Positions 25,991 to 62,000 of a DNA stretch of 64,000 nt are shown here, piece by piece. Where the stretch lies: the NCBI GenBank assembly GCA_045837725.1, contig JBEWZL010000278.1:434001-498000 (forward strand). The letters run 5' to 3'. The notes under the pieces were generated by a model. That model was given only the letters and a program-made list of their open reading frames with translations, ran no database searches and had not been told where the DNA came from. The DNA comes from Vermamoeba vermiformis (Eukaryota). The stretch's first letter is position 1. Each line of letters opens with the position of its first letter. Both the position numbers and the translations under genes were made by a program.

Positions 25991-28900
25991 ATGGCGGATC
26001 AGTGGGTGGCTAATATTAGAGTTGCGTCATTGCTTGGCCATGCTCGTCCTCTTAAAGGTACGGTCATTAAAAAATAAATTTAACGGTTACATCTAAACTC
26101 AAAACCACCATTTAGCGTGGAGAAAGCAATTAGTAAGACCTTGGGAATTATCTCGACGAGGTCAAGATGGATATCTGGGTCTTCTTGGTCAGCAAGGACG
26201 AACTGGTAAGCCAAACTTAAAATTATCGATTTCTTCCTCACCACAAATTTTGAAAATTATTATTTAGGCTACTACGGTGCAAATGGTTCGCATGGTATAG
26301 GCTATGGTGGTCATGGTTCTTCAGGGTAATTATAAAATTCAACAATTTCAAAAATTGCGAATTGGCCTTACTGATCGTACTTGGCGATATTTAGCCATCC
26401 AGGTGGTCACGGTGATCGAGGCTATGACGGAACTCTCGGCCAAGATGGACAAGATGCAGCGTAAGTAGGCCGTTGCTCATCTGAATTGAATCTGCTCGAG
26501 CTTTTGAACGTCATTTAATTCATTAAATCAACAGCGATATTCTATTAACTGTAATGTTAACGCCTAACAACGCCCCTGGTCAAATTCAAGAAGTCGATCT
26601 TGTCGCGCACGGCGAGGAAATCAAACGGTATGTAAAGCGGTCAAATTAGCTATTCTTGCGTCACTAACGCTCTATAAATAGACTCCGCCTCGACTTTACT
26701 TCAGACACTGATATGCTATTGACTTTAAATTCAGCCGGTACGTCTATTTGATGCAACTTTCTCGCGCGTGTAACTCACTTGTAACAGGCGGCAATGGTGC
26801 TCATGGAGGCCAAGGTGGTGTCGGTGGCATTGGAGGTCAAGGAGGCCGCGTAAGTATAACCTAGACTTGTTTACTGTTATTGACACGGGCTGCAGGGAGG
26901 AGACGGCGCTGCTGGTAAACCGGGAGGCAGCAGTAGATACGACTTGAACGGTGGACCTGGTGGCAACGGAGGCAACGGTGGTGCTGGAGGTCCTGGTGGA
27001 CGTGGTGGCGACGGTGGTAAGTGCGCATTGGATCTGATGTGTCCTCGTGTAAAGATGGTTAAAAGTGCGTGATAGGTCGCGGAGGCAATGGCGGCAATGG
27101 CGGCAAAATTGACGTGACGGTGACTGACCCGCGCATGCTCATGTTGTTCTACTTCAACATCGCTGCCGGTCTCGGTGGCTACGGTGGTCATCCAGGCCAC
27201 GGCGGTCCTGGTGGACGCGGAGGTCACGGTGGTCACGGTGGTCCTGGTGGCGCAGCTGGCAGCTACACCGAGTACTACACGACATACGACTCCAACGGCA
27301 ACTCTCAGACACAGTCGCGAACTATTTGGGGTTCGCCAGGTTCGCCTGGTCTGTCTGGCTATGACGGCCCTGATGGCCCTGTAAGTATTAAACCCTTATC
27401 TTCCTTTATCATAGCTAACACTCGTTTGTAGGATGGTCCACAGGGCACCAAAGGCTCTAACGGCAATGACGGCAAAGTCGGCAATTTGACCTTGCGAGTT
27501 GTCGCCCCCGATGTAAGTCTTGAATTTATGCGACTAGGATTGCATAATAATAATACGATGCACAGGGCCGAGTATTGCAACAAGCTCCGACGCGCTATGA
27601 TCTGCAAATTACGGATATTATTTTTGACGATGAAATGGCCGATGGTATCTTCGAGCCCAATGAACTGCTGATCATTAAGAAAGTCCGCTTAGCCAACGTC
27701 GGAAAATTAGATTGTCCCGCAGGCTCGACATTCTTTTTTGAGTCTACGGGTACAGTGACCTCAATGAAAGAAGTTGCAGCTGTGCCTGAAGTACCTGTCG
27801 GCCAAACCATTGAATTGCCCGTAGAGTTCAAAGCACGCATCAAAAACATTGCTGAACCAACTACTGCTGGTCCGCAGGGCTTTGAGGCCACAATTAAGAG
27901 TAACTCCGAGCTCATTGGGTACGTGCCTTACTGCTTCAATTCTTTGGTCGGATCTAACCTCTAAACGTGTTGTATAGACTTCAATTCCCGTTATCTGCCG
28001 CAGAATTCGCATTAAATGTGAAATGGCCGTTGCATATTGCCAGCGTTGGCGCTCCCACTCAAGTAAGCACGACATATTGTTAATGCGTACGTGTTCAGAT
28101 CTGCTTACTGACTTGCATTAGATGGCCAACAACGAGGAATCTGTCGTGCAAGTCACTATATTTAACTCATCTAAGCGCATGTACGGCGATGCAGCAGATC
28201 CAAGAACTGCAGGACAAATTGTCGTAGAATTCTACGAAGGTAAGTTCTGAGGGGACCACTAGTCTCGTAGTGAATATTTATGCAACAAAAATGCGCGATG
28301 AACACTGTTCGCTTCGTACAACCATCAATTCGAAACTTGCGGACCTTTGTTGAATCCGGATTTAAATTTGGATTTTGGTCAATGTGGGTTGCTAACTAGT
28401 CAGTTGCTTAGGTCTTACTCCCACCGATTACCCTACACGAACAGTAGTTCTCCCACTTCAGCCGATCATGCCTGGCGACAAGCTCGTGTACAACATCAAA
28501 GTGCGCGCAGGAATCTCACCGCACTTTTACCGCGTGCCGTTCCGTGTCTCGTTGCGATTGCGCGAGAGATTAATTGAGTTTACCGACAGAAATGTTAGAA
28601 TTACTCCTGACTGGTACGTGCTAACTTTTAAACCGCATCGTTTGGATCGGGTCACATCCGCAAGTTGGATCTAACTTGGTTCATCAATTTAATGGTTGTA
28701 CTATGTTGTCAACCCTTGCTAACGCCGCCTATTATGTAGGAATGAGTATATTGATGCTCCACGCGAAGGCATTACAATGTTTACGGGTCCTCATATTACC
28801 TTTGAAGAATACAACTCGTGGGTCAAGTTATTCCAACTGCTCAGCTTGCCGTTCACTATTTGGGACATTGAGCGATATGCGGTACGTAATAGCACATATC

Positions 28901-30925: not shown

Positions 30926-33900
30926 ATGAAGCTCGCGCTAATTGCTCTCGTGGGCTTGCTGTGCTTGGCCTACATCCACGCACAAACGCCTGAAGCCCCC
31001 AAACTCTCAGACTTTCCCCAAATAAAGGATCTACCAAACTGCCTTGGTAGAAATAAAGTAGTCGGTAAGTAGTTAATAGTAAGCGAGCTGGAGTATTGAT
31101 TGCAATTATTTTTCCAATTTGGAATTATAAATTTTGAACTATGTAGTTCTCGGATGCAGTTCAAAATTTATGAATCTGATTCATTTTTCGGTGCATTACA
31201 ATAAGCTAACTGATCCCTTAGGCTACGAGTCCCGAAAGCCCATTCTTATCGCGTCCAATCCATGGAGTGGCTCAGCAATCAACGCACACATCGCTAAAAT
31301 CCTGTTAGAAGAGGTCGCAGGCATTCCTGCATCTATTATAGAGATTGACGAGTATTCCCAATGGGAGTTTATGGCTCAAGGTCAAATCCACGCCTGTTTA
31401 GAAGTTTGGTAAGTTCAACTTTGAATAATAGCTTGCATTAACTTGATCATTGTAAATCGCGTTTTATTGCATTATCGGCATTACAATATTCGTTGCAATA
31501 GCGTTAAATGCACATGGCACTCGTGAGAACACATTTCAGATGCGTTATGTGAACTTTTGCGAACATCTCTAATTAGAGCGAATCTTTCAATAGGCCCTCC
31601 GGACATCAAGCAGATAAAGACAAATATATTTTGGAGCAAAAGACGGTCACTTCTGCGGGTCCTCTTGGCGTTATTGGGCAGATCGGTAAGCAACGAAATT
31701 TTGGTTCAAAATATGATAATCAATCATTTATTCCCGCGGTTACCGTCATAAATTAAATAATATTATGCCGTTATGGTGGTTGCTTTTAAATTCTATAATT
31801 AAGAGAAAAAAGAAAATGGAAGAATTGAAAATTCGTGGAGTCGTTAAAAAATTTTATATGATTACCGCTATTTATAGTAACACTTTCATATAGGCTGGTA
31901 TGTTCCGCGCTACTCGGTAAAAAATGCGCCGTTAGTTGCGACGGGCAACATAGATGCCGCTACCGCCGCTTACTTCAACAATACATTCATACTCGGAGAC
32001 CCTACTTGGACTACATTCGATCAACAAATCATCGACGACAATGGCTGGGACCTTACGGTGAAGACTTTGGATGGAGAACAAAGTTTGATGGATTTGATCG
32101 CCCTCAAAAACGAAACTCAAAGCCCGCTTTTGTTCTACTTCTGGACTCCTCATGCAGTGCATAAACTATTCGATTTGGTTCGCGTGCAGCTGCCTAATAA
32201 TGGTACGAAATTGAGCTCCGAGGTTTAATCTCCAGTACAATATTTCTTTTTTCCATATTTGGACAAATGCTTAGAACGCATTCAAATTTAAATCCATTAA
32301 TTGGTTTATGATATATGATATTATAGAGCCTTTTCTAATCCCAGTTTTCTCTTTTCTAATTTTTTTGATGCAGATGCGTTTTATCCTCCTGAAATTTTGG
32401 GCAAAGTCGTTGCTAGCTCATTGCGCGAGTACAACAAAGAAGCCAATTTCTTCATTTCATCAATCAGCTATGACTCCGCCACTCAAATCTCCCTGTTAGC
32501 AGAGATTACTCGCGGAAAAGATGTTTTTAACGTCTCTTGCGATTGGATCCGCGCCAATGAAGCTGTTTGGTCCAACTGGATTCTCATTAGTAAGTACTAT
32601 ACAAAATTAGTTACCTTATCCAGTTTAACAGAGCTACGTTAATTAATCTGAAACTTTCGTACTGCGATCCAATTCAATCGCTAATTAATTTATTTTTAAT
32701 TAAAGCGCCGTTCGAGTCGATTGACTCCGGAGTAATTATTGCCGCTCATGTCATCGCCTTTTGCGGTATTGGCGTTGGTATCTTCTTTACCATCATGATG
32801 GTGCTTCGGTACGTACTACCTCATACAACAATTACAACTCAAAAATAAGCTCAAAATAATACGAAAATATTAGGAACATGTTATCGTTTATATTATTTGA
32901 TGACTCAGCTGTCATTTTTCAAATTATTCTTGGATGTGAGCTACCTAATTTTGAGTCCTCAGTACGTGCACTAACACTTTTGAACCAACAGCCGCAGCTC
33001 GCAATTGATTCGAGCCTCGAGTCCCAACTTCTTGCTGGTCATGCTCGGCGGCTGTTTCCTGCTCTACGCCTCAGTCGTGGCTTACAACTTCCTGTCACAG
33101 ATTTCGTGCTACATTTGGCTCTGGTTCTTCAACATTGGATTCGTCTTGTTGTTCGGGTACGTCACTATAATACCATTATAGATCGATATGCATAAGACCA
33201 CACAAACATTTATTACAAAACAGTAGATTTTTGAGACCGAATGGGATTATGTTCGTTAAGTGTCTCAGTACTAATCGCGTACTATTAACAACAGCACTCT
33301 GTTCGCGAAAACATTCCGCATCTATCGCATCTTCAGCAACAAGAAGTTAAAGCCTGTCAAGTTCACCGACAAAGACGTTGGCGTGGTGTTGGCTGTGCTG
33401 GTCGGCGTTGAAGCTGTAAGTCACCGCTCAGATAAGACCTAATACTATTATCATAATACAACATATGAATATTATATATACTTCGAAAGTCATTTTAAGG
33501 AAATTTTTTTTTTTGCCAGAGCCGATGTTTCAATGGTTTTTTCGAGCGATAGTTTTCTTCGAATGAATTCTCATGAATTATTTCCTAATTAGGGCCTGTT
33601 GATTACGATGAGCGTGTGGCAAGGACCGACTTACGGCCTGATCGTGTACGACACCGTGCAATACAACACGTGTCAGTTCAACTTCCCGATCGGCATTGCT
33701 CTCATCTTGTACAAGGTACGTTATTACTATATTTGGTAATACTATATATGGATATACTTATTCACGGTGATTAGGGCGTGTTGTTGGTGATGGGCGTTGT
33801 GATCTCGGTGTTGACACGTAAAGTCAGCATGTCAATGTACAACGAGTCCAAGTACATTGGTTTGGCTGTAAGTACTATATTCAGTCATATATATATATAT

Positions 33901-37967: not shown

Positions 37968-40329
37968 ATGGAGAATATATCAGCGAGGTAAGTGCTCGTA
38001 GAATTTATTTAGATTTTGTAAGCGATTTTATGGCCACATCTGCATTTTGCAATGAACTTGTCGCAACTAAATCCAATAATAAGTGGAATATTAGACTCTA
38101 GATAATATTATAAAAATATTTTGCAAACGATATTCTTTTAACTAAGCTTTAACAGCAACCCAAATATTATCGAGGCTTCAGTATGGCTCTATTTGACCGA
38201 AAAAGGCCGAGAAAATAAGAAGAGGCCATTTAAATATTGGATGAATAATTCAGAGCTTTATTTCGAAGTCTCTTACGTGCATCCAACTCACGTCTTTGAT
38301 GTGCCAACTTTGCTTACGGATGCGTACACCTCTTTTCTTCAAAGCGTGCAAGTCGTAGCATATGACAACGAAAAGAAGCAAAACATGCCTACTCGATTTC
38401 CAGCGGAGTCTGTTTTTGTAAATCCGATCATCGACGACATCAACTTGATTACCTGGACCACAACTGGCTGGAAAATTCCATTTCGATGCACCATTTGTCT
38501 GCCAATAGACAAAGTTAAATACGTGCAGCTCTTCGTCAACGGTTGGGCTGTTGAATTTACTTTGTATGCCAAAGCCAGCTCAAAAAACAAACTCGACGCA
38601 GGAGCACCAAAATTATTTTCTATATTAGGTAAGTAGCTTGTAATGTACCGAAACGAACTCCTATAATATTTAATGAAATTCAATTTGTAGCGGGATCCGG
38701 ATTCTCAAGAATTTTTTTTGTAGGTAGAATGCAGCGAGGATTTTTGGGCGCATCAGAGTCTAGTACTACACACGATTTTACCAATATGGCAGCTAGAAAT
38801 ACTTTTGTAGCAGAGGATCCAGAAGGTAATTTTTCCGATCCATTCTCCGACATTTCATCACCCGATTACGTGCCAGACGATAGTTATTACCCTATTGGCC
38901 AATTCAACCCCGAGCACATCGACCAATTGGATCCAGCCGCGATCGACAGCCCCGACTTCTCGCACTCGACGAATGACAGCTTCGATACCATTATATCCAA
39001 TTACAATCCTACGGCCTTTGAAGAAGAAAAGCAACGGGCGAAAGAACACGCCAAAGCCAAGCGCTCGTCCCGTTTCAAGAAAGAGGTTGACAAAAAGAGT
39101 GACGTCGCAGCGTATACTGAACAAGACCGCCATCGAAAACGAAGGTTGGCCAGCAAAGATGAGAAAGAAATTTCGTCTGCAACAACGAAGAAGAAATCAA
39201 AACCGCAACCAAAGTTACTCACAGCGAAGAAGGAAGGCAACAATTTCACGCAATATATTCGTAAGTCACGTCCAGAAGGACCCTCGGATGCAAGTCTAAA
39301 CTTTTTTAATTTGCAGCCACGAGCGTGGTCACGAGCGGCATGCAACAAGTGTCATTGGATCCGAAAGTTGAGGCGACACCGCAATCAATGCCCACCGGTG
39401 CTCCAACCTTCAACGCATTGCACCAATATCACGACGTGGTTCCATCGAGTGTCAAGTACATGGGTGACTTGGCTGGCTCGGTTGTCACCAATGAAATTAT
39501 ACTACAACCAGATGTTGAAGCCGATGCGTTCATCGGCAGGGAAAAAGAACAAGAGGGTAAAGGATCTGTTGAAGACCTTAACGCCTCCGAGGATGAGGTA
39601 GTGCAACCCCTCAGGCGTCCGACTGATGCAGAGCCCGAGAGTCTCGCGGAGTCCCCTGCTGAACATCAGTCTCTTGCTAATTCAGCCAAGTATGAGGACT
39701 TGGAAGGAGAAAATGAAGAGGATGATTACGATGAAGATGACTCTTCTAGCGCCTCGTCAGACGATGAAGACGATGATGATGAGTCAGAAGATGAGCGTCG
39801 AAAGCCTGTCGTGTTCAAGCTTAGACCCGCCAAGTCGGTCATTGAACGCATTGCCGCGAGCACGGGCATGGACAAGAACGCGATGGACCAGGTCATCAAG
39901 ATGGAGTTGGGTAATGGCAAACCGAAGGAAAACATCGCATTCATCGATGAGCTGCACAAGGACCTGAAGATCAACGACTTGCCGCTCATGGCCTACAATC
40001 ACGTGCTCGTGTTCACGGACCAATACTCCGTGGCCGCGCAGCGCAAAGTCACCATCTTTGTCGACAAATCAAACAAGATGCGCGTGCACAAGAGCCCCAA
40101 GATCGAAGTCACGCACCAAAATTTGGAGTTCAATCTTTACCTCAAAAACTTTGGCAAGCCACTCGTGTCGCATGAGCAAGTCATGTGCGCGATGAGTGTT
40201 GACATTGAAGTGCAGGACCAAACTGGATTCGTTGCCATTGTGCCTGAACACGTGGGTCTCGTCATCTTCGTGCCGTTCGTTTTTAACAAAGGACTCAATG
40301 AGCAAGTCAAGAACCAACAAAAGAAGTAA
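37968..40329 (+). CDS. Uncharacterised protein with basic (NLS-like) and acidic tracts
   Basis: Four exons spliced by eye, starting MENISASNPNIIEASVWLYL. Contains RHRKRR and KKKSK, an acidic DDEDDDDE tract and a beta-rich C-terminal region. No family recognised. Confidence 0.65.
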
Positions 40330-40434
40330 CGCTTTGGTTAACAATTTGTATATACAAACCAGATTTGAAAACGAATCCGATCTGGTACAAACTAAAATTT
40401 AATTTATTGTTTTATACAAAAAGAGTTATATGCT

Positions 40435-41951
40435 TTAAAAATCATCCTCGATTTCCTCGTCGCTATCCTCTACAGATTCAGCGCTCTTCTCAGCTCGTTC
40501 TTCGAATTTTTTCAGCAATGTAGGGCAGTTCAAGTTCGATTTAGCTTCCCAAGTGTTGCTTTCCTCGCCGTAGCCTTCCCACTTGATAAGATACTCAACA
40601 ACTCCCTATTAATAAGTTTAGACTCGTATTACGTTGCGCTGATCTGATTCTAATTTTACCTTGCGTTTTCTCTTGTCTAAAATAGCCTCAACAACGAACT
40701 CTTCCTCTTCGATAATATTCTTTTTAGCCTTTTTGGGAGTCTTCTCTTTTTTCTCTTTCTTTTCTTTCTTCTCTGCTGCTTTTTTCTTCTTTGGCTTTTG
40801 GAAAACTTCTTCGGCACTGTCCTCTTCCATCGCATCGTTTTTATTGCTATTGTTATTGTTATTATTATTATTGGTCTCGCCGCTCTCGTCATCCTCATCC
40901 TCATTATTGTCGCCGGTTCCGTTCGGGTGATCGCGCGTGTAGATCAAGTAGGTCCAGACATTAGGGAACTTGTTCTTAATAGCCTTGTGAATGTCCTTAA
41001 GGTCCTCAGCTGTTACTTGCGGCAAATTCTTGGCCTTGAGGCACTTCGGGCAGATGCAGATGTTCTCGCAAACAGGGCACTTCCAACGCGTGCTTCCAGT
41101 GTTCATAACACCAGGCTTTTCAATAGGTCTGTCTTCATCAATCATTGAGTCGTCCGAATCGAGACTCTCTAATGATTTGGACTCTTCTTCTTTCTCTTCT
41201 TCGTTCGGATCGGAGATCTGAATCCGTTTGTCAGTACGTGATGATTACTAGGAACGATAATTATATACCTGAAGGCCGTATTTTCCAGTCAAGCACTTGC
41301 GACAGAACTTCACATCGCAGCTCATCTCCTCGCACTCAATCATAGGGCCAGCTTTGCCTGGATTCGAACGGCAATGGTGGCAGTTAGAGCCCTTAGGATA
41401 CTTAATCACGTCTGAGGTCTATTGTGCCGTATTATATTAGACTATAAGCCTTCAATAGTTACTGTAACAACGTACGTCTCGTTTAGGACGAGGAGCGCTT
41501 GGTTTTTTCTCTTCGCCAGCCTCTTTAGCCTCTTGTTTTTTCTTAGCAATAGCTTCTTTGCGTTTTTGACGTTGTTCTTCGCGTTCAGCTGCTTTAGCAC
41601 CAATAACTTGTTCGAGCGGAATGACTTTGCCCTTGATCTTGAGATCGGCAGTGGACATTGTCTTAATTTTAGGGCTATTTATTGATATTAATATTTACTA
41701 ATAAATAAACAATAAACGCGTCGTTAGGGAATAAAATTTACTTCATCAAAATTTTTTTAATTGATTGAGAAATGAATAGTCACGTTCAAAAATTCCAAAT
41801 ATATTACTTACCCTTCTTTCATCATTTTTCCCTTTCCTCCTTTGCCTCCTTCACCTTTTCCGTCCCCGCGCGCAACACCACCCTTGATCATCTTCGTGCC
41901 CATGGCACCAAGTTGTTCCTTGCTCAGCGCACTGTCTTTGGTACGAACCAT
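40435..41951 (-). CDS. zf-4CXXC_R1 (CDCA7-type) zinc finger + C-terminal chromodomain protein
   Basis: Spliced product: MVRTK... then GSNCHHCRS...[20 protein letters not shown]...[17 protein letters not shown], then [51 protein letters not shown]. Confidence 0.88.
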
Positions 41952-42559
41952 TTTGTGTGTTGTTACGTATTGTGTAATAAAATTCAGAATAATTGTCGAT
42001 CGAGCAGCAACAACGGTACTTTTGACGTTTAAATTTTTGCGCGGGAACGTTTTTTTTTGCTCGATCGAACTGCTGAAGACCACACGTCCCTAGCGCACTC
42101 ACATCACTTCTATAAGCGTGGGATAATATTATTCAGATGTGAACTCGTTACTTTCAGACCAAAGAAACAAAATCTAAACTCGCAACTGAAGGAATGCTCC
42201 ATTGAAATTCGTTAAAATATTTAGTGCACAAATATAGCCATTATTCCGAAGGGGTAAGTCTTTATTTATTTGGCTGGCAAACGTTGTCTGAATCTCGGAT
42301 TTGCCGATTACTGCCACGACCAATTTATATTCATTTTGCTGATTATTCGCGAACCATGGTAATGGAACGCACGCTTGTTAGTGCTTGCTCCAATAATAGC
42401 TGAAATTGGATTATTCCGACGGTCAATAATTTACAAAATTCACAAATATTAGGAGTACCGCACCAGACAAACACGGTATACAAACCGCAAATTTATTTTT
42501 CTGTCAATATTCATTTTTAAAACCAGTCGAATAACACAAAAGCCTTTATTTCATCCAAA

Positions 42560-49557: not shown

Positions 49558-52500
49558 TTATTTGCATTTTCGTAACTTGTGGTACTTGTGTGCCCACTCA
49601 TACGTTAGTGCCATTAACTCTTTCCAGGTATCTTTTGCCTGATTTTTAAACCCTTTAATCTTCACTAACTTTGGCCATCGCTCTCCACCGATGTATAGGC
49701 AGTGATCGAGTAGCTGATTTGCTCCATATGCTTCAGAGAAGATAAGGAAATCCAAGATATTCTCTACTGTCGTCAGATCCGCATTTGCAAGCAACACTTC
49801 GCAGCACTGCGTCAAACGAGGCAAGTCGTAACTGTGCGCCAAGCATGCAAGATCAATCAACGATTCGGTCGTGAACTTGCGGTCGTGATCCAAGTCGTCA
49901 GCGTAGATGTAGTGAATCAGATCTTGGAATGTTTCGGCCTTCTCCTCGGGTATAACGATCTCCTTCTTATGACTGATAGCGAATTAACATCAGCCTCGCA
50001 ATTAATGCACTCGTACTACACATACCTCTCAGCCATGCCCGAGTCAAACATGTGTCGGAAGTGAGGACAACGCGCGTACAAAACGATCTTGTGACAATCA
50101 ATCTTGCGCCCTTGCACGACAAATGTGACGTCGCAGTACTCTTGCAGATGATTGACATTGACTGCTTTGATCAGCGGCGAGTAGTTGAGTGGCGAGTAGC
50201 CCGAGAACAAGACAGGCGTCAACAAGAGTGCTTGTTGCCAGGTCATCTTGGCAGCACTGTCTTCTTCAGAGGACGTGGAGTCGTCGATTTGACTGATCAC
50301 ATCAATGTCGTCATCGGAGGACAACATCTCGAGCATTGATCGTCGCTTTTTCTTCTTGGCTGACGACAATTCATTTAACGCTTCGACCCACGTGATCATT
50401 TCGTTCTCGTTGGTATTGGGCGGGTTATTTGCATCATCAATCGCGTTGTTGTTGTTGTTGTTTGGTGCTTCCTGCTGTTGACCCTCCTCTTCGTCGTTCT
50501 CGCCGGGAAAGAACAGAGCCTCTTCCCACGTGATCTGCTGATTCAAGTGATGATCAATATTCTCTTGCGGGTTGTTGTTCTCGCCTTGCTGCGGCAAATG
50601 CTCCATTAATCCTTGCAACATTGCCTGCATCAAATTCAAGCGGGACTCTCGTTTGCCTGTTTCTTTTTGTCTTTCAGCTGCCGTCTTGGCGAGGCGATCC
50701 TGTTCTTGGGCCTTTTCCTGTCAAATTGTTAGTGCCTATTACGTGGGATTGATTGTAACTCACTTCCGCCAGTCTATCTACAGTGTTCTTAATTTCGACA
50801 GCCAAGTACGAGAGTTTCAGTTGATTTTTCACAAACTCTTTGAGCTGAGCAAGCAATCTCTTACGGCGCTTTTTGCCCTTGAGTGCCTCGTACAAATCTC
50901 CGCCGTAAATCTGAATCGCACGTTAGCTCAACAGTATTGTATTGTAAAAGACTTACCCACTGAACGAAGGTCAAAAACGCGTCAAACTTGATATTCTCGA
51001 TTGTGTTCTTAGACTGCTTGTAGATCTTCAACAGCTCGGGACACAAACACGCCAGTATTATTTTGTGGGCATACAACGTCTTATTCTCCACCACAAATTG
51101 AATGTCGCTGCACGTGCAATGTTAGTAGTCGAGTAGTTAATCATCACGTGAACAGTAACGTACCTGAACTTAGAATTATTTACAATAGCGAGCATATCTC
51201 TGGTGAGGATAGACGGACCTACTGTCACGTGCACTCGTTGCCGTTCACCTAGTGCAGTGTTAGTACAGAGCAGATATGACGCAATGAATGGACGTACTCG
51301 TGTCAAGTAGAGTGCATTCGCCCGTGTACTTGGTTTCTTCAAAAGTGACCCAGTATTAGTAACAGAAGACATTAGCGCCCAAATAATACATTACCTTGTG
51401 CGCCGCCTCCGTGCACAACACCACCGAACGAGAGAATCTTATTATATACAAGCACGGACACGTGATAAAATGTCGGTGGCGGGGCCCATCCTTCCACGTC
51501 ACAATAGGACCAGACAAGTGTGTCTGTGTCCAGATAATGTATGTCATTGTACGTCGCGTCCCTGTCGTCGAATGAAGTGCCACCAAAAATGTAAATTTTG
51601 TTGTTGATCGTCTGGCAGTTTGTGAGTACGTGTAACACGACATGGTTCCGACGAGGTACTTACGACAGCTGAGTGCCAAGACCGCGGTGTCGGGACGTTT
51701 CCAGACGCGCTTGGCTTCAACCACTCGTCCCTGTCCAAGTCGAGAATATGTACATCGTTGAAGTTGCCATTGGTCAGGAGAGATGTCGCGTTCGGCGCGA
51801 ATCTATCCGCTTCAAAATGACCTCCAAAAAAGAATATTTTGCGACCTAGTATCAGTTCCTTATTAGCCCCCGTGCCTGTTATGTTATTATTGCTTCACTT
51901 ACCGACAGCACTTGCACTGTGTCCGACGCGAGGTGACGGTCCTGTGCCCTTCGGAAATAAATACCGCCACGTGTGCGTCTTCGTGTTGTACTCGTAGAGG
52001 TCTCCAAAATATCGATTGGAGTGCACGAGATCACCACCAAATAAGTAAATGTTGTCGCCAACCGCCGTGAACGAAAATTGTGTTCGTGCACATGGTACAT
52101 CTCCGTGTTGTTCTGGCTTGCTCCACACCTTTTTATCTGTCCATAGCGTTAGTTAATGGACCATAGATGGCACCAGCAATATAGTTGTATTACCTAAATC
52201 TAATATATACATGTCGTTGTAATGTAACCGCGACTGGAAGTAGTTGGATCCGCCAAAGATATAAACTTTGTTTTTAATATATACAGCGCCGTGGCCTGAT
52301 CGCGGCGAAGGTCCTTGGCCTTGAAATTTGTTCGTGGCGTTCTCCCATTCTTTGGTTTCTGCGAGATTTGGTCAGAATTAATTACGAATTCCACTTTGTG
52401 ATTGTGTCCGAATCGTAATCTCTTATTGATTGAATCCAACATTAAATTTTGATAAAATGGATGGAATAATTCTTCCATCGAATTATTGTTCAAAATTTGT

Positions 52501-53030
52501 AAAGAAAAGTGTTGTCGGATCGGCCAGAAGCGCATAAACATTGCCGGCTGAAAACTTACTCAGATTAAATATTTGGACGTCGTTGTAATAAGTGCCGTCT
52601 CCATCTTCAGAACAATAGCCACCGAAGAATAAAACCAAGTGATCAGCTATTTTTGTCGCAGATCCGGCAGCACGCGCACTTGGTGGTCGACCATGAGGTT
52701 TAAATTTTAACCAGCGCACTAAATAGAAATAAAATACATTAATAAACTAATATTGCGCGACAAGGATAAAGGGCATTAGCGAAACAACAAGAAAGACTCT
52801 CGCCAGATGCGCTAATGTATTGTATTGCATAATTAATAGAGCCAAAATATATATTTGCATGCATTGATGAGTAGTTTGCACGAGGGATAATAAGCATAAA
52901 AATTTAAAATGGAAATTTAAAATTACAGATGGGCCAAACCACGCCCGAACAAAAATAAGATAATTCTAATTCGGGACCTACCAGTTTTATCTGCTTTTTT
53001 ATTTTTTGGGTCTGCCGTCAAGTTGAACAT
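49558..53030 (-). CDS. Kelch-repeat + two BTB domain protein (LZTR1-like architecture)
   Basis: Kelch repeats (PPSARAAGS...LFFGG, PCARTQFS...IYLFGG, PTPRSWHSA); two BTB domains (LYAHKIILACLCP; CDVTFVVQGRKIDCHKIVLYARCPHFRHMF). Confidence 0.88.
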
Positions 53031-56068: not shown

Positions 56069-59000
56069 ATGGAAGAGACACAGGGCAAAAAGAAGCGGAA
56101 TAAAAGAGGCGGTGGCGTATACGAGCATGGGTTAATAACGGAATATGAGTCAGAACCATCTAAAGACAAAAAGAAAGAGCAAAAATTGGCAGAATCAACC
56201 TATAACGATCTACCAACGATTAATGTGCCAGGGAAAAACGAAGACGCGCCAAATTATATTGAAGATACGCAGACTGAATCAGAGCTGACGAAAATTGCAA
56301 ATACAAAAATCTGTAAGGAATTTTAATTTTTGATATATTTTTAAAAGCGGTAGAAGGCATCGTAAATTCGGTTAAAATGTCGAAATATAGAGTCCAAAAA
56401 ATCGTTCGATACTAGTTATAGCATTGCTAATTTATTATTTTGGTGCAGCACCGAGATCCACGCCCAGATCGAAAATTGATACTGAACAATTAAACAAAAT
56501 ATTGGTCAAAATGCCCAAATCTCAGCTCAAGGAGCTAATCACCGACGTTATTAATATTGACGATGAAATGATGATATTGATTAAAAAATACGCCGACGCT
56601 CAGGCGAACTTGCGCATCCAACCTTTCAAGAAAGATTGGAACAAGGATTATCAAGCGATATTGAGTGAACCCGACAGCGAGAGCAAATTCAAAAAGCTTT
56701 ATCATTTAGCCCACGATTTCGTTTACGCTGCCAATACGTTCGTGTCACTTTTGTATCTCCTCGTAATCTCGCTAACCTACGACTTAACAGGTACGCTAAA
56801 ATTATCATCTCAGAACTGGCCTTGCCTCCTGACGAAAAAACAATAGAGGTAAGCTATAAACGATAAATTACAATGCATTCTCACACGTACTTCAGTTGAT
56901 GGACATTGGAGGTATCGCAGGTGGCACGTAAGTCGAGCACTGCATCGATTATTTAAGATAATAACGTCTCGTAGTAAATTTGTGTGTCAGAATATTCTGT
57001 TCAAGTTCGTATTGGATTTTGAATTGAAGCAAGGCCTGTGGATGTACGGAGGAGACTCTAGGAACGACGAATATGTACGACGAGCGACCGCCACTCGTGG
57101 TCAATCCATACTAACGTTGCATATATTGTAGGCGATGAAGGCTGCAGCACATGAGCTGAAAGGATTGATTGGCTATTATTCTTGCAACATTCCAGGTCTC
57201 AACTTTCCGTTGATGGCGATGATCGATTACAAAGGATTCCGTGTAATTGCAATGTCCATTCTTCCGATCAACTCAAAAACAATTAAATATGGTAAGTGTA
57301 CGAAGCAGCACTGCCTAGTTAGCTAACAAGCTTAATTAGGTTCGAGTGACGCCGGAACAAATGTTCACTGCGACGTACCTGAGCTAAACGAGAAAATGGA
57401 TCGTGCTGCAACGATTTTAAACTTGAAGAAGCATGTGATTGGTGCCCGTGAAGGCAGCAACATTCGGTTGAGCAGTCCCGGTGATTTGGAAGGACATTTG
57501 GGTCTCGTAAGTTATTTCAGCACGTGAACTTCGTTGACTTAGTCAACTCATATTATGTAGGACGGGCGATTCTACTTGCTAGATTTCGCAAGGACCTTAC
57601 CACCTGAGGGCCCTGATGTTGAGTACGTCCACCATGCTTTAATGAATTTTACTAACGTTTGTAGTCCTAAATTCCGCGAGAGCCGACAGGTTTATTATAA
57701 GCTGCTACGACAAGAGGTAAGCAAATCACTATCAATCTGACTAATACGCATGATTTGCTAACTAGACTTGTAGTTTGTTCGTATTTGGCCAACGCCTTTG
57801 TGTTCCGATGCATTCACGGCCTGGCAGAAAAATGATCCCGAGAAACAAGTAAGCACACGGTACCATAATGCATTGAACCTAACGTCGTTGTAGCAAAATG
57901 ATTTGGAGATAATGAAGGCCACAAAATATTTGATGACACGTGCCATTCCTGATTTTGCGGACAAATTGGACAAACTGTTGCCTAATGAAAGTGCTAGCAG
58001 TCCGTCTTTCGTTATGAATAGGGCTGCTTTCGCTGCCGAATTTGCAAAGATTCACAAGCAGTTTGATTTCTCGCGGGATTTGGACCCGAACAAAACCGCT
58101 GCAGGAAGTAGCGCGCAGTCTTTGGAGATCAATCACACGATCGAAGAAATGCATCGACATGGTATCAACATCAGACATCTTGGGCTGCTGAGGACGTTCT
58201 CAAGGTCTAAGCCCGTCAAACGATTGCTCTTATTGGAAATGGTGGCACGCGTCATCAAAGACGTTCTGAGGTCTCAAATGAGAAACATTATGCGAGAGGT
58301 TCGAGTGTTGTCAGAAGAACCGTTCAAGCAGATTGTATTGAAGACGTTCAACTACACTCTTGGCCGCGATCCCCAATCAGCGAAGTTTTGGGCAATCGTG
58401 AAAAATCGACTGGTTCGCAAATTCAAGAAAGCCCTGGCAGACAACGAGCTTAATGTAAGTTAAAGTCTTGTTATTGATAATACTAACACCCATAGACCGA
58501 TTTGCACGATTCGATCAACATGTTCTCGCTATTTTCGCGATTGCAAGAGCTCGTTGGAGTAGAGCTTACGTCAGAAGCGAAGCAAGAGTTGCGCGATTTC
58601 CCTGATAGCTTTGAGTTCGTAAGCTCTGACGTGCTCGAAGTCTATGCCAAGGTCAAGCACTTGAACATTATCGATTATGCCGGTATGTTGTATTACGTTC
58701 CATATAAGTATTACGTGCTAATTATAATCACAGAGGGCATGGCTCTGTCTTTTATGGCTAAGAAAACTGACGGCAAAAGAGAGCGACTACGCTTGCTGAA
58801 ACTCAGTTCACAGAAGTTCGAAAGTGCTTTGCGTGCTCTTCCCGACAGCTTCATGACGCTGTATCAATGGGGTTGCGTGCTCGTAGAAGAAGCCAATATG
58901 AACGTTGCAGCGAAGGCTCAGCAGAGCTTGGAGAAGGCCTGCGAAAAGTTCCGTGAGGCCATTATTATCAACCCGAAATTTCAGGAATGTCAACTGCGGC

Positions 59001-62000
59001 TGGGTGACGCATTGATTCAACTCGCCAAGATGAAAACGACCACCGATGTTAGAAGCAGAGTAATCAAGAAGCTTTACAAACAAGCTAGCGAAGAGCTCCG
59101 CAAATCACTGGACATCAATGTAGACTTCAAAGGTTTCGAGTCGGTCTTCCAACGCATTCAAACAATGTACATTACTGCTTCGGACGACAAAGAGACTTAC
59201 AAGCGAAGAAAGATGATGTTCTACGGAATTTCCAAGATCTGCAAGCACCTCTACAATCAATTGCTACAGCATCGAGAGGCTATTCTACGCGTAGATCAAA
59301 CTTCCGTAGAAGCACTGGGAAGGCTCGAAGAGATGCAGAAGATTATGGACGAGCACGGAGAGACTTTGAAGGCGATTCAAGACCTTGATTTTGCAAATGT
59401 CAGCAATACGAACAACAAAGAGACTACAGCGACTAGACCGCGTTCAGGATCAACTGGAGGAGTGAATCCATTGCGTGTTTCGGCAAAAGCGAAGAATCCG
59501 TTGTACGTGCCGGGTTTTCGTGGTTCAATTGACATCTTCGGAGCGAAGGCAGCGAACAATAATTATTCGCAGCCAGTAATGAGCAAGTCAAAGTCTTTAA
59601 CAGCGACAAACTCCGAAGACAAAGATTTGTACGGTGGTGATCCTCTCTACAACCAAGCAATGGAAGACGATGAATTAAGTCAACTGTTCCGAGGCGCTTA
59701 CACCGAGGAATTGTCTCCAGTTCCCAGCACTAGCGGTAATGACACGCTGCCGTCACCTCGTTCAAAGTTTAGCAAAAAGCCAGGCTTACTAAAGACCAAG
59801 TCCACCTCCGCTCCAAAGATTCAGCGACACCGTAGAACTGTGTCTGATCCACTCGGCAAAGAAGATATGACTTACGAAGATCGAGTTGCTTATTACAACA
59901 GAATAACTACGGAAGTGACTAGCATTTGGAGCGATTCACTGCTTCAATACGCCTCTATGAAGAAGTCGTTTACCTCGGCGGAATCTTTGTTCACCAAATC
60001 AGCCGACGTTTTGACTAAGCTCATCGCCATCGATGCTAAAAATGACGATGTTATTCGTAGAAACGTCGAGTATCTCAAGACTAAAGCAAAGGGTACGTGC
60101 ATAGCTCGCTCTAATTCGAGGATCTAATCTCATTCTTGCAGCAAATAAAAAGCTTCACTTCGCCATCTCCGAGCTGTACAAGGTGCTCGAGAAGCAAGAA
60201 AACCATAAGAATGACGAGTCAATGCTGTACGCTTGGGGAGAGTGCTTGTTGGAATACGCGTCGTGCTTTTTCACGGAAATCGAACGGTTCACCCAACTGC
60301 ACGCCGAAGCCGGTCAGAAGTTCGAGCGATTGTTGAAGATATCTTCAACGTATTTGGATAATTATGTTATCAATTTGCTTTGCAAGCAAGACAGGTAAGG
60401 GTCCTTATTAGTACTCTACGAAAAACAACTAACAAATGTTGTTTCAGAACGGCTCTCGAGCAATTGATCCTGCTCCTTCCTTCATGCCCTTCGTTCCTGG
60501 AAAGAATTAAAGCGTTGAGTGACAAGTTCACTGCGATTAGTTTTGAAGGCAGCTCTCAATTGACAGGTATTATTATTATATTGATTTGTTCATGAAACCA
60601 AGCGCTAATCCGTGCATCGAAGATGATATCTTGGACCAAATCTTGCCAGTGCTCCCTCACTTGCAAGAAGTCAATTTCAGCTTCGTGAAGTCTGTCACCG
60701 ATAGCAGCTTGGCGGTTATTGCCAAGAAAGCGCCGCAATTGCAAAAAATCAACCTTTCCAATTGTACAAATATCACTGACGAGGGTATTCTCGTGATGTG
60801 CAGCAATTTGAAAGAGCTTCAAGAGATCAACTTGGCAAATTCGAGCATCACTGACGAATCCGTGCAACACTTGGTGACACATTTGCCGAGTAAGTTGATG
60901 CTAGCGTATTGTTGACAGCTAACGAATGTCGTTGTAGAGCTGAAGAAGCTGGACTTGGAACGTTGCAAGATTACCAATGCAGCTCTGCGGCACATCGCTC
61001 AGGCTCGGAGTCTAGCGTGTTTGGAAAGTTTATCGTTCAATCGCTGTTTGAAAATCGAAGACTCAGGCCTTGCTGCGTTTGAAACACGTAAGTACTGCAG
61101 ATTAATTTCGCGTTGCTGGGTTAGCTAACTTAAATTCGAAGAAAAATGCCCGAGCCTGAAGAATATCGAATTGAACGGTTGCTCACAGCTCACTGTAGAA
61201 GCAATTCGTTCTATTCTTGTGTCATTTCCGAACCTCACAAGCTTGTCCCTCGAATCGGACTACAGCATCAATGACGAGTGCGTCAGCATTATCAGCGGCT
61301 TGACAAAGTTGGAAAAGTTAAATATGCGCAACACCAAGGTCACGAGCAAAGGCTTGGTCCACTTGACTGCTTTGCTCAACTTGACTTATTTGGATATTTC
61401 AAAGTGTCCTATTTTGCCGAAGATCAAGGAGGCCAACAAAGTGCCCGACGCCTCTTCCTCGCAAGATTTCACGCCCGAGGAGCCCGGCAATTTCTCTAGT
61501 AAGATTGATACCGTATTGCAACGTATTTATACTAACGACGTTTTCAAGCATTGGTACACAATTTCGAGGGAATTGAACGTGAAGAGTTGATCGAGGTTGA
61601 CAAGTCGTTGGAGGCATTCATGGAAGTAGTAGGACCTCGCCTTAACACGCTGTTGATGGCACAGTGTCCTACGATACCGAATTACTACTTCTCGTTGCTG
61701 GGCCGCAAGCTAGTGGGACTGTTGCAGACTCTCGACTTATCAGAGAACCGCGAATTGACTACGGAGGCGCTCATTAGCATCACAAAGGGATCTCCAAACT
61801 TGGAAAGTCTTACGCTTGACGCGTGTCGGTTGACGGATACCGGTGCATTTGCTATCGCAGACAACTGTCTGAGAATCAAACACTTGAACTTGTCGCGATG
61901 CAGCGTATCGGATAGCGCGTTGAGTTACTTGGGTTTGAAGTTGAACAAGTGTCAGACGTTAATCTTGGCCGGCAATTTTGCCATGACAGATAAGGTAATA

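What the first reader, a model, noticed from the sequence alone, without database searches (positions are those of the whole stretch)
40435..41420. CDCA7-type zf-4CXXC_R1 finger fused to an HP1-like chromodomain
Seen: the finger's Cys/His ligand pattern is retained, with an acidic insertion between YG and WKCP, and the chromodomain keeps its aromatic cage (F, W, Y). Compared with human CDCA7 (CHQCRQK...GQFC...LRNRYG), the first Arg is kept but GQFC becomes VKFC and RYG becomes KYG. Known: the CDCA7 finger reads hemimethylated CpG and activates HELLS, and chromodomains read methyl-lysine such as H3K9me. Inference: a single protein coupling a DNA-state reader to a histone-methyl reader, a possible alternative heterochromatin/methylation link. 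DNA specificity may differ from CDCA7.
Basis: partly seen in the sequence, partly recalled or inferred. Interest (0 to 1): 0.72.

Follow-up and report, generated by a model that had tools for sequence, protein, structure and literature searches.

The report
Amoeba CDCA7-like finger plus chromodomain
A real, expressed five-exon gene of a Vermamoeba-type amoeba joins a diverged CDCA7-family zinc finger to an HP1-type chromodomain, but this pairing is already recorded in another amoeba, a fungus and green algae, so it is a further member of a known kind and not a new system.

Summary
On the minus strand, 41951-40435, lies a five-exon gene for a 405-aa protein. It carries a zf-4CXXC_R1 finger with all 11 signature Cys, split by an intron and a 44-aa acidic insertion, and a complete HP1-type chromodomain with an F/W/Y cage.

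Intron-less contigs of two runs splice all four introns. Full-length relatives P0005 (405 aa) and P0004 (a Vermamoeba vermiformis transcript) carry both domains, so this is one gene. Against a 96%-identical strain, 23 codons differ synonymously and 2 non-synonymously.

The finger is not a CDCA7 orthologue. R274 is kept, but Q275 is S, G294 is V, R304 is K and S330 is P, so it fails the class I criteria and fits class II.

The pairing of a class II finger with CHROMO is in print for Acanthamoeba and Taphrina. An Atlas cluster of 167 members carries both domains.

Best reading: a two-headed heterochromatin reader (H3K9me plus DNA) whose DNA specificity differs from CDCA7; binding is untested. 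One local novelty: the acidic insertion is the best-conserved segment, 42 of 44 residues. Interest is low to moderate.

The parts
41812..41951 (-). Exon 0 (coding part): start ATG at 41951-41949. Encodes a Gly/Lys-rich N-terminal peptide. The 5' UTR reaches at least 41964.
   Evidence: The joint 41674|41812 (skips 137, GT..AG on the minus strand) is seen in contigs of X5 and X7, and the X7 contig reaches 41964. The frame is open from this ATG. P0005 begins with the same N-terminus, 44/47 identical over residues 1-47.
41675..41811 (-). Intron 0, 137 nt, GT..AG
   Evidence: joints table, runs X5 and X7.
41476..41674 (-). Exon 1: basic, predicted helical region before the finger (to residue 113).
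   Evidence: In the AF2 model of P0005 a helix spans residues 67-98 at pLDDT 64-81. No Pfam match.
41419..41475 (-). Intron 1, 57 nt, GT..AG, with an in-frame stop
   Evidence: Joint 41418|41476 in X7. X5 shows 41415|41476 with 3 other letters between, a variant.
41269..41418 (-). Exon 2: N half of the zf-4CXXC_R1 finger, Cys 1-6 (residues 126-155). Holds R130 (=R274), S131 (=Q275), V149 (=G294) and K159 (=R304).
   Evidence: Pfam 25.5 bits, profile 5-45/99. Alignment to CDCA7 chains. Residue positions.
41218..41268 (-). Intron 2, 51 nt, GT..AG, lying inside the finger-coding region
   Evidence: Joint 41217|41269 in contigs of X5 and X7, and in 8 raw RNA reads of X23 beginning at 7 places.
41086..41217 (-). 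Acidic/Ser-rich 44-residue insertion (residues 164-207) between Cys 6 and Cys 7 of the finger
   Evidence: 15 D/E, 9 S/T, 5 K/R. 42/44 identical to P0005 and 43/44 to P0003, the best-conserved segment of the protein. Modelled as low-confidence loop. More distant relatives P0112 and P0141 carry an acidic insertion at the same place.
40924..41085 (-). C half of the finger: Cys 7-11 (residues 210-222) plus the C-terminal helical part (to residue 261)
   Evidence: Pfam 25.6 bits, profile 54-99/99. Alignment to CDCA7. Helices at 219-256 in the P0005 model, pLDDT 57-77.
40711..40923 (-). Low-complexity linker, residues 262-332: an acidic stretch, an Asn run and a Lys-rich stretch
   Evidence: 17 K/R, 18 D/E and 14 N in 71 residues. 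It varies in length between relatives. A 9-nt in-frame indel separates it from strain L001.
40660..40710 (-). First strand of the chromodomain, with cage residue F337 (end of exon 3)
   Evidence: Alignment of P0005 to HP1alpha/HP1beta chromodomains. Identical residues in the window. Position.
40606..40659 (-). Intron 3, 54 nt, GT..AG, lying inside the chromodomain-coding region
   Evidence: The joint is seen in contigs of X5 and X7.
40435..40605 (-). Exon 4: rest of the chromodomain (cage W358, Y361; to 40495), a 19-residue acidic tail, and the stop codon TAA at 40437-40435
   Evidence: Pfam Chromo 47.3 bits, E 1.9e-12..

Best explanation
This is a single expressed nuclear gene, under purifying selection, of an amoebozoan close to Vermamoeba vermiformis. 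Its 405-aa product reads as a two-headed heterochromatin reader.

Inferred from homology: the C-terminal HP1-type chromodomain docks on methylated H3K9 through its F337/W358/Y361 cage.

Inferred, more weakly: the diverged three-zinc zf-4CXXC_R1 finger contacts DNA, probably at CpG, through the retained R130 (=R274) and K159 (=R304). It lacks CDCA7's strict preference for hemimethylated CpG, because the Q275 position is free to vary.

Inferred: the strongly conserved 44-residue acidic loop, inserted right after the backbone-contacting K159, modulates that contact or recruits a partner. The Lys-rich linker adds non-specific nucleic-acid affinity.

The protein is a class II-type paralogue of the CDCA7 family and not the CDCA7 orthologue, so activation of HELLS is not implied.

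Shown here: the gene model, its splicing, its domains, its key residues and its selective constraint. Not shown: any binding.
For: Gene and transcript:
- All four GT..AG introns are removed in contigs of runs X5 and X7. One intron is also removed in 8 raw RNA reads of X23.
- The frame is open from the ATG at 41951.
- Full-length relatives P0005 (405 aa, 323/395 identical) and P0004 (374 aa, 305/360 identical; a EukProt Vermamoeba vermiformis transcript) carry Chromo at 61-62 bits and zf-4CXXC_R1 at 46.6-46.8 bits.

Constraint: against strain locus L001, the CDS differs at 26 of 1215 bases (23 synonymous and 2 non-synonymous codons), while the introns differ at 28 of 299 bases.

Chromodomain: the best solved relatives of P0005 are HP1alpha/CBX5 chromodomains (67.3 bits, E 1.3e-17), with the cage positions occupied.

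Finger:
- 11 of 11 signature Cys are present.
- With a 4-row family profile, CDCA7 becomes the top solved-structure hit (8yv8_K, E 0.014) and both halves align in order.
- R274 is the residue that contacts 5mC and the neighbouring G. R304 contacts the backbone (passages of PMC11343034).

Context: Supplementary Table 1 of PMC12344493 lists DNMT1 = 2 for V. vermiformis.
Against: - No binding data exist for any class II finger in the papers I read (passages only).
- Q275, the residue that gives hemimethylation selectivity, is S/K/A in this clade. G294 is V, the same change as the ICF3 mutation predicted to disturb zinc coordination in CDCA7. S330 is P.
- A 44-residue acidic loop beside the DNA-contact residue could repel DNA.
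- Pairwise similarity of the finger to CDCA7 is not significant (E 2.8 and 2.1 for the two halves). The profile hit at E 0.014 is borderline.
- CpG observed/expected in the window is 1.24, equal to GpC at 1.23. There is no sign of methylation-driven CpG loss in this gene-rich stretch.
- The structure models are of low confidence (mean pLDDT 50.9 and 55.6), so they do not confirm the fold.
Confidence: 0.55

Rival explanations
1. It is the amoeba's working equivalent of CDCA7. On this reading the finger senses hemimethylated CpG after replication, and an N-terminal helix recruits and activates a HELLS/DDM1-type remodeller. The chromodomain would add H3K9me targeting, a UHRF1-like coupling of the two marks.
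For: - The finger belongs to Pfam zf-4CXXC_R1, with all 11 Cys and the R274 equivalent.
- A long predicted helix precedes the finger (residues 67-98 of the P0005 model, pLDDT 64-81).
- V. vermiformis is listed with 2 DNMT1 genes.
- Funabiki et al. treated fungal class II 'CDCA7F' proteins as possible CDCA7 stand-ins.
Against: - It fails two of the three ICF-residue criteria for class I (G294 is V, R304 is K).
- The Q275 position varies between close relatives (S, K, A), which argues against selection for hemimethylation selectivity.
- Whether the genome has HELLS, UHRF1 or a class I CDCA7 could not be checked, because no genome is held.
- There is no CpG depletion in the window.
Confidence: 0.12
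2. The finger here is not a DNA reader but a protein- or histone-binding zinc module, used in the way ADD, PZP and PHD modules are used. The conserved acidic loop would bind basic histone surfaces or a partner. The protein would then be an H3K9me-anchored scaffold with no DNA-state reading.
For: - The acidic insertion is the most conserved segment (42/44 against P0005), more so than either finger half (42/50 and 39/52).
- The DNA-contact positions Q275 and S330 are not kept.
- The weak structural neighbours of the finger model are the DNMT3A ADD domain (Z 3.8) and the JADE1 PZP domain (Z 3.2), level with or above CDCA7 (Z 2.6).
Against: - Those Z values are far below any meaningful level and come from a low-confidence model.
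- By sequence, the only solved family that a profile of the finger recovers first is CDCA7.
- The base-contacting Arg is kept in the window, P0005 and P0004.
Confidence: 0.25
3. The apparent fusion is an artefact: the exons belong to separate genes, or it is a pseudogene or a transposon fragment.
For: - The low-complexity stretch 40744-40911 is not covered by any laid contig.
- Three of the four introns have lengths that are multiples of three.
Against: - The uncovered stretch lies inside one uninterrupted open exon.
- Every intron carries an in-frame stop and is seen spliced out.
- Independent full-length transcripts or models P0004 and P0005 hold both domains.
- 23 synonymous against 2 non-synonymous codon differences from strain L001.
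- No reverse-transcriptase or integrase family appears among the 135 window ORFs scanned (8, 127).
Confidence: 0.01

Closest known systems
Class II zf-4CXXC_R1 + CHROMO proteins of Funabiki et al. 2023 (eLife, PMC10538959): Acanthamoeba castellanii XP_004340890 and Taphrina deformans CDCA7F CCG81269
   Same: - The same two domains in one protein, with the ICF glycine substituted.
- Acanthamoeba is also an amoebozoan.
- Taphrina shares the short 4-residue gap between the 4th and 5th Cys (supplement passage).
   Different: - Both published fingers keep the CDCA7-like CHQCR and RYG motifs and a short loop before the W-x-C-P motif (supplement passages).
- The window has CHHCR followed by a variable residue, KYG, and a conserved 44-residue acidic insertion.
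- Orthology could not be tested, because those sequences could not be brought into the tools.
Human CDCA7 (class I zf-4CXXC_R1, the hemimethylated-CpG-sensing HMZF domain; solved chains 8yv8_K and 8tle_A)
   Same: - Pfam family PF10497.
- 11 signature Cys in the same order.
- The base-contacting Arg (R274) is kept.
- A helical C-terminal extension follows the last Cys.
   Different: - Q275 is S, G294 is V, R304 is K and S330 is P.
- Three residues fewer between Cys 4 and Cys 5.
- A 44-residue loop where one search's alignment shows about 9 residues in CDCA7.
- An added chromodomain.
- Pairwise similarity is not significant.
HP1 family (CBX5/CBX1/Drosophila HP1) chromodomains
   Same: Best solved relatives are these chromodomains (67.3 to 61.3 bits). 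The aromatic cage positions are occupied by F/W/Y and the acidic N-terminal strand is present.
   Different: - No chromoshadow domain: Pfam finds only Chromo and zf-4CXXC_R1 in P0005.
- The window protein ends 19 residues after the chromodomain.
- It is therefore not an HP1 orthologue.
UHRF1 (a functional analogue only; recalled knowledge)
   Same: One polypeptide that would join an H3K9me reader to a CpG-state reader.
   Different: The domains are unrelated (tandem Tudor-PHD and SRA, against chromodomain and zf-4CXXC_R1), and there is no RING or UBL domain here. This comparison rests on recall, not on a call.
Green-algal 'Chromo domain-containing protein' cluster of the ESM Atlas (167 members), and earlier scan notes on Ostreococcus
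   Same: In that cluster PF10497 is on 100% and PF00385 on 99% of members. It is the nearest cluster to P0005, score 0.88 with 172 shared features. Earlier notes e1-562292 and e1-561945 describe such fusions.
   Different: A score under 0.9 is only a lead. The taxa are mostly Chlorophyta. The earlier notes describe a shortened chromodomain, whereas here the Pfam match covers profile positions 1-53 of 53 in P0005.

Membership tests
Pfam zf-4CXXC_R1 (PF10497) | Score above the curated gathering cut-off (22.7 bits) | tested here: met
   Window exon 2 scores 25.5 bits and exon 3 scores 25.6 bits. Full-length relatives score 46.6-46.8 bits.
CDCA7 orthologue (class I zf-4CXXC_R1, Funabiki et al. 2023) | Eleven signature cysteines | tested here: met
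   Cys at 126, 129, 142, 147, 152, 155, 210, 213, 217, 219 and 222, aligned in order with CDCA7.
CDCA7 orthologue (class I zf-4CXXC_R1, Funabiki et al. 2023) | ICF residue R274 conserved | tested here: met
   R130 in the CHHCR motif aligns with R274 of CDCA7.
CDCA7 orthologue (class I zf-4CXXC_R1, Funabiki et al. 2023) | ICF residue G294 conserved | tested here: not met
   V149 aligns with G294.
CDCA7 orthologue (class I zf-4CXXC_R1, Funabiki et al. 2023) | ICF residue R304 conserved | tested here: not met
   K159 aligns with R304. It is K in all six aligned sequences that cover this position (window, P0005, P0004, P0112, P0141).
CDCA7 orthologue (functional definition, Wassing et al. 2024) | Q275, the hemimethylation-selectivity residue, conserved | tested here: not met
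   S131 in the window, K in P0005, A in P0004 and R in P0112. The role of the residue comes from passages of PMC11343034.
CDCA7 orthologue (functional definition) | N-terminal HELLS-binding helix, and co-occurrence with HELLS and DNMT1-UHRF1 in the genome | not testable with these tools
   No whole genome is held. Only DNMT1 = 2 for V. vermiformis is known, from Supplementary Table 1 of PMC12344493.
Class II zf-4CXXC_R1 + CHROMO architecture (Funabiki et al. 2023) | zf-4CXXC_R1 with the ICF glycine substituted, plus a chromodomain in the same protein | tested here: met
   V149 for G294. Chromo at 47.3 bits in the same spliced transcript.
Pfam Chromo (PF00385) | Score above the cut-off (25.1 bits), with the full-length domain | tested here: met
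   Window exon 4 alone scores 47.3 bits. P0005 scores 61.5 bits over profile positions 1-53 of 53.
HP1 family | Chromodomain with an aromatic cage | tested here: met
   F337, W358 and Y361 align with the cage positions of CBX5. The cage residue numbering of HP1 itself is recalled.
HP1 family | C-terminal chromoshadow domain | tested here: not met
   No Chromo_shadow match in P0005 or P0004. The window protein ends 19 residues after the chromodomain.
CDCA7 fold (three-zinc HMZF) | Structural superposition on solved CDCA7 | tested here: inconclusive
   The AF2 model has mean pLDDT 50.9. Foldseek gives CDCA7 8tlf_A at E 4.4. VIA-align gives Z 2.6, rmsd 3.3 over 62 residues.

The most novel reading that the evidence does not exclude
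The 44-residue acidic, Ser-rich loop is inserted directly after the DNA-backbone-contacting Lys and is held almost invariant: 42/44 identical against P0005, compared with 39/52 for the C-terminal finger half. It may be a built-in DNA mimic or autoinhibitory switch. On this reading the finger engages (methylated) CpG DNA only once the chromodomain has docked on H3K9me or the loop has been phosphorylated. That would be a gated way of coupling histone and DNA marks, distinct from both UHRF1 and CDCA7-HELLS. It would define a finger subfamily with an acidic loop that also exists without a chromodomain (P0112, P0141).
Probability: 0.1. Interest if true: 0.6.

Novelty: new member of a known kind. 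Interest (0 to 1): 0.3.

Why it matters
The same fusion of a CDCA7-family finger with a chromodomain now turns up in a second amoebozoan lineage, with a clearly different finger subtype. It is already recorded in a fungus and in green algae. This suggests that evolution has repeatedly tied this finger to H3K9me reading.

Non-class-I fingers have no known ligand. A small protein from a culturable amoeba reported to carry DNMT1 genes would be a convenient test case for whether they still read CpG methylation. The near-invariant acidic loop gives a concrete handle for such tests.

It does not reveal a new kind of system.

Tried and rejected
- Whole-genome check for DNMT, HELLS and UHRF1: no genome is held. 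Within the 64 kb, 135 stop-to-stop ORFs were scanned: 8 of 200 aa or more, and 127 of the 161 ORFs of 85 aa or more. The other 34 lie in 35.4-42.2 kb or had been scanned earlier. None matched a DNMT, SNF2 or SRA family.
- Earlier-findings look-ups by place and by sequence returned nothing.
- Word-indexed protein searches found only the protein's own clade: 3 hits, 2 longer hits, and 3 hits for finger region 104-264.
- The exhaustive HMMER search with P0005 gave 6188 hits at E <= 0.001. The 150 listed were swamped by chromodomain proteins. All 35 of the top hits that I scanned had Chromo only and no finger. Only P0112 and P0141 matched the finger alone, so this search gave no architecture census.
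With P0005 it gave 4 loci: one the same gene in another strain, three with chromodomain only.
- Structure: the AF2 models have mean pLDDT 50.9 and 55.6. Foldseek against PDB gave 0 matches at E <= 0.001. The VIA second look over 25 chains gave a best Z of 3.8. No conclusion on the fold follows.
- Pairwise phmmer of each finger half against PDB put CDCA7 at E 2.8 and 2.1 only.
- Rfam: 0 matches in the window.
- Run index: no RNA holder is listed, although contigs of X5 and X7 lack the introns.
- The raw RNA reads of X21 and X23 match at only 90-95% and come from a diverged relative.
- Complex prediction was not used, because no protein-protein binding is claimed.
- Print searches: 'zf-4CXXC_R1' with 'chromodomain' gave 1 paper, on cotton JmjC genes. 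Searches found no paper on this Vermamoeba protein or on an acidic-loop finger subtype. These searches cover only the held library.
Full report
**What is in the sequence**

The region is eukaryotic, about 40% G+C, with short GT..AG introns.
- 41418-41269
- 41217-40660
- 40605-40435 (including the stop codon)

They are separated by introns of 51 and 54 nt, each with an in-frame stop.

Pfam scores on the translated exons:

| Exon | Family | Bits | Profile positions | Cut-off |
|---|---|---|---|---|
| 2 (41418-41269) | zf-4CXXC_R1 | 25.5 | 5-45 of 99 | 22.7 |
| 3 (41217-40660) | zf-4CXXC_R1 | 25.6 | 54-99 of 99 | 22.7 |
| 4 (40605-40438) | Chromo | 47.3 (E 1.9e-12) | 17-53 of 53 | 25.1 |

The finger is therefore split by an intron. 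It is also split, in the protein, by a 44-residue acidic, Ser-rich insertion with 15 D/E, 9 S/T and 5 K/R. The finger holds exactly 11 Cys.

**The gene is larger than the finding**

I laid public runs on 40200-42100.
- Contigs of two runs (X5, X7) match at mostly 99% or more and lack all the predicted introns.
- They also show a fourth intron, 41675-41811 (137 nt, GT..AG). It joins exon 41674-41476 to a further 5' exon that reaches at least 41964.
- One X7 contig (526 nt) runs from 41964 through three splice joints into exon 3.
- Separate contigs in both runs bridge the intron inside the chromodomain.
- Eight raw RNA reads of X23, starting at 7 places, also show the 41217|41269 joint. Those reads are only 90-95% identical and so come from a diverged relative.

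The frame is open from an ATG at 41951, which gives a 405-aa protein.

The low-complexity stretch 40744-40911 is not covered by any laid contig. It lies inside one uninterrupted exon.

**Independent confirmation and the organism**

A search for longer proteins returned two full-length relatives.

| Relative | Length | Source label | Identity to my model |
|---|---|---|---|
| P0005 | 405 aa | 'hypothetical protein' | 323/395 |
| P0004 | 374 aa | transcriptome ORF | 305/360 |

- P0005 starts with the same N-terminus as my model.
- Both carry Chromo (61-62 bits) and zf-4CXXC_R1 (46.6-46.8 bits).
- The cluster look-up names P0004 as a EukProt Vermamoeba vermiformis sequence. The window therefore comes from that amoebozoan or a close relative.

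**Selective constraint**

A metagenome locus, L001, is collinear with window 44953-40151 at 96.1% identity. Within the gene:
- The CDS differs at 26 of 1215 bases: 23 synonymous codons and 2 non-synonymous ones (D273E and T378A).
- There is one in-frame 9-nt indel, in the linker.
- The introns differ at 28 of 299 bases.

The gene is real, expressed and under purifying selection.

**The chromodomain**

phmmer of P0005 against solved structures is led by HP1alpha/CBX5, HP1beta/CBX1 and Drosophila HP1 chromodomains (67.3 to 61.3 bits).
- In those alignments F, W and Y sit at the three cage positions. The numbering of the HP1 cage itself is recalled.
- The same residues are present in the window as F337, W358 and Y361.
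- There is no chromoshadow domain, so this is an HP1-type chromodomain and not an HP1 orthologue.

**The finger**

It belongs to PF10497 but is far from CDCA7.
- Pairwise phmmer of the two halves puts CDCA7 chains at E 2.8 and 2.1.
- A four-row family profile (A2) makes CDCA7 8yv8_K the top solved hit at E 0.014, with both halves aligned in order.

From that alignment:

| Human CDCA7 | Window | Role in CDCA7 (PMC11343034 passages) |
|---|---|---|
| R274 | R130 | contacts the 5mC methyl group and the neighbouring guanine |
| Q275 | S131 (K in P0005, A in P0004) | excludes fully methylated CpG |
| G294 | V149 | the G294V mutation is predicted to disturb a zinc site |
| R304 | K159 | contacts the DNA backbone |
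| S330 | P220 | contacts the DNA backbone |

The gap between Cys 4 and Cys 5 is three residues shorter than in CDCA7.

By the definitions of Funabiki et al. 2023 (PMC10538959, passages), class I needs the 11 Cys and all three ICF residues, and class II has the glycine substituted. This finger fails class I and fits class II in the broad sense.

I found no binding data for class II fingers in the passages I read.

**A local peculiarity: the acidic insertion**

Identity to P0005 by segment:

| Segment | Identical residues |
|---|---|
| Acidic insertion | 42/44 |
| N-terminal finger half | 42/50 |
| C-terminal finger half | 39/52 |
| Chromodomain | 46/54 |

- The insertion is the best-conserved segment of the protein within this clade.
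- Two more distant finger-only proteins, P0112 (194 aa) and P0141 (137 aa), are about 36% and 31% identical to P0005. Both have an acidic insertion at the same place. Neither has a chromodomain.
- The insertion follows directly after K159, the equivalent of the backbone-contacting R304.
- That it gates or modulates DNA binding is my inference only.

**Structure**

AF2 on the shallow family alignments gave low-confidence models.
- P0005 model: mean pLDDT 50.9. The finger blocks reach 55-77, and the chromodomain stays under 50.
- P0112 model: mean pLDDT 55.6.
- Foldseek found nothing at E <= 0.001. CDCA7 8tlf_A ranked second at E 4.4.
- The VIA second look gave a best Z of 3.8 (DNMT3A ADD domain) and Z 2.6 for CDCA7.

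This neither confirms nor denies the fold.

**Genomic and biological context**

- No whole genome is held.
- The Pfam-scanned ORFs of the window include P450, WD40, sedolisin, BTB-Kelch, LRR, OpuAC-like and CLU/TPR genes. None is a DNMT, SNF2 or SRA gene.
- CpG observed/expected is 1.24, the same as GpC at 1.23. This gene-rich stretch shows no methylation-driven CpG loss.
- Supplementary Table 1 of PMC12344493 lists Vermamoeba vermiformis with DNMT1 = 2 and DNMT2 = 1 and no other DNMT class. A maintenance-type 5mC system is therefore plausible in this organism.

**Comparison with what is known**

- Funabiki et al. report the same domain pair, class II zf-4CXXC_R1 plus CHROMO, in Acanthamoeba castellanii XP_004340890 and Taphrina deformans CCG81269.
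- In their supplementary alignment both keep the CDCA7-like CHQCR and RYG motifs and a short loop. Taphrina shares the short Cys 4-Cys 5 gap.
- The window's finger is thus a different subtype. Whether the fusions share one origin could not be tested.
- The ESM Atlas holds a 167-member cluster with PF10497 on 100% and PF00385 on 99% of members, mostly Chlorophyta. It is the nearest cluster to P0005, at 0.88, which is a lead only.
- Earlier notes of this scan describe such fusions in Ostreococcus.
- My paper searches found nothing on the Vermamoeba protein itself or on the acidic-loop subtype, within the held library.

**Verdict**

It is one protein with two reader-type domains in an organism reported to have DNMT1. 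It is not a CDCA7 orthologue, its ligands are unknown, and the architecture is already in print.
- Most likely (0.55) it is a two-headed heterochromatin reader whose DNA specificity differs from CDCA7.
- Rivals: a true CDCA7 equivalent acting with HELLS (0.12); a finger that binds protein or histone and not DNA (0.25); an artefact (0.01).
- Novelty: a new member of a known kind. Interest: 0.3.
- The conserved acidic loop is the one feature that could lift it.

Noticed in passing
window 41951-41812 (exon 0), residues 1-47: The N-terminal 47 residues are Gly/Lys-rich and almost invariant against P0005 (44/47). The start (V-R-T-K after the Met) and the G-K-G-G-K runs recall histone H3 and H4 tails. 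That resemblance is from memory only, and no family matched (one search covers exon 1 only).
   Followed up: no
window 41415-41476 and 41185: One run (X5) shows the intron-1 joint three bases further in, with three other letters between. The diverged RNA reads of X23 carry a 3-nt insertion after 41185, inside the acidic loop. Both look like in-frame variants between strains or relatives.
   Followed up: partly
window about 40769 (K/E-rich linker): A 9-nt in-frame length difference separates the window from strain locus L001 in the Lys/Glu repeat of the linker. The Asn run also varies in length among relatives.
   Followed up: partly
window 31131-32225 (+): Two ORFs match OpuAC, the bacterial-type glycine-betaine-binding domain (E 1.4e-6 and 6.5e-8). 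This may be a gene acquired from bacteria, in an amoeba known for gene trafficking.
   Followed up: no
window 49561-52746 (-): A multi-exon BTB plus Kelch-repeat gene (LZTR1/KLHL-like): BTB in two ORFs and Kelch repeats in four.
   Followed up: no
window 57894-60124 (+): A CLU/eIF3-p135-like ORF is followed by a 543-aa ORF with a weak TOM20_plant/TPR-like match. It is probably one Clueless-type gene.
   Followed up: no
window 27554-27961 (+), 19487-19795 (-), 3296-3691 (+): Exon-sized ORFs match DUF7932 (E 5.7e-17), the pro-kumamolisin activation domain (sedolisin) and the cytochrome P450 C-terminus.
   Followed up: no
whole window: CpG observed/expected is 1.24 and GpC is 1.23, while TpA is 0.80. 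There is no CpG depletion, although DNMT1 genes are reported for V. vermiformis.
   Followed up: partly
window 38633-40329 (+): The convergent neighbour gene ends 105 nt from this gene's stop codon. It encodes an acidic, Ser/Asp-rich protein with only a sub-threshold PCNP match (20.9 bits against a cut-off of 27).
   Followed up: no
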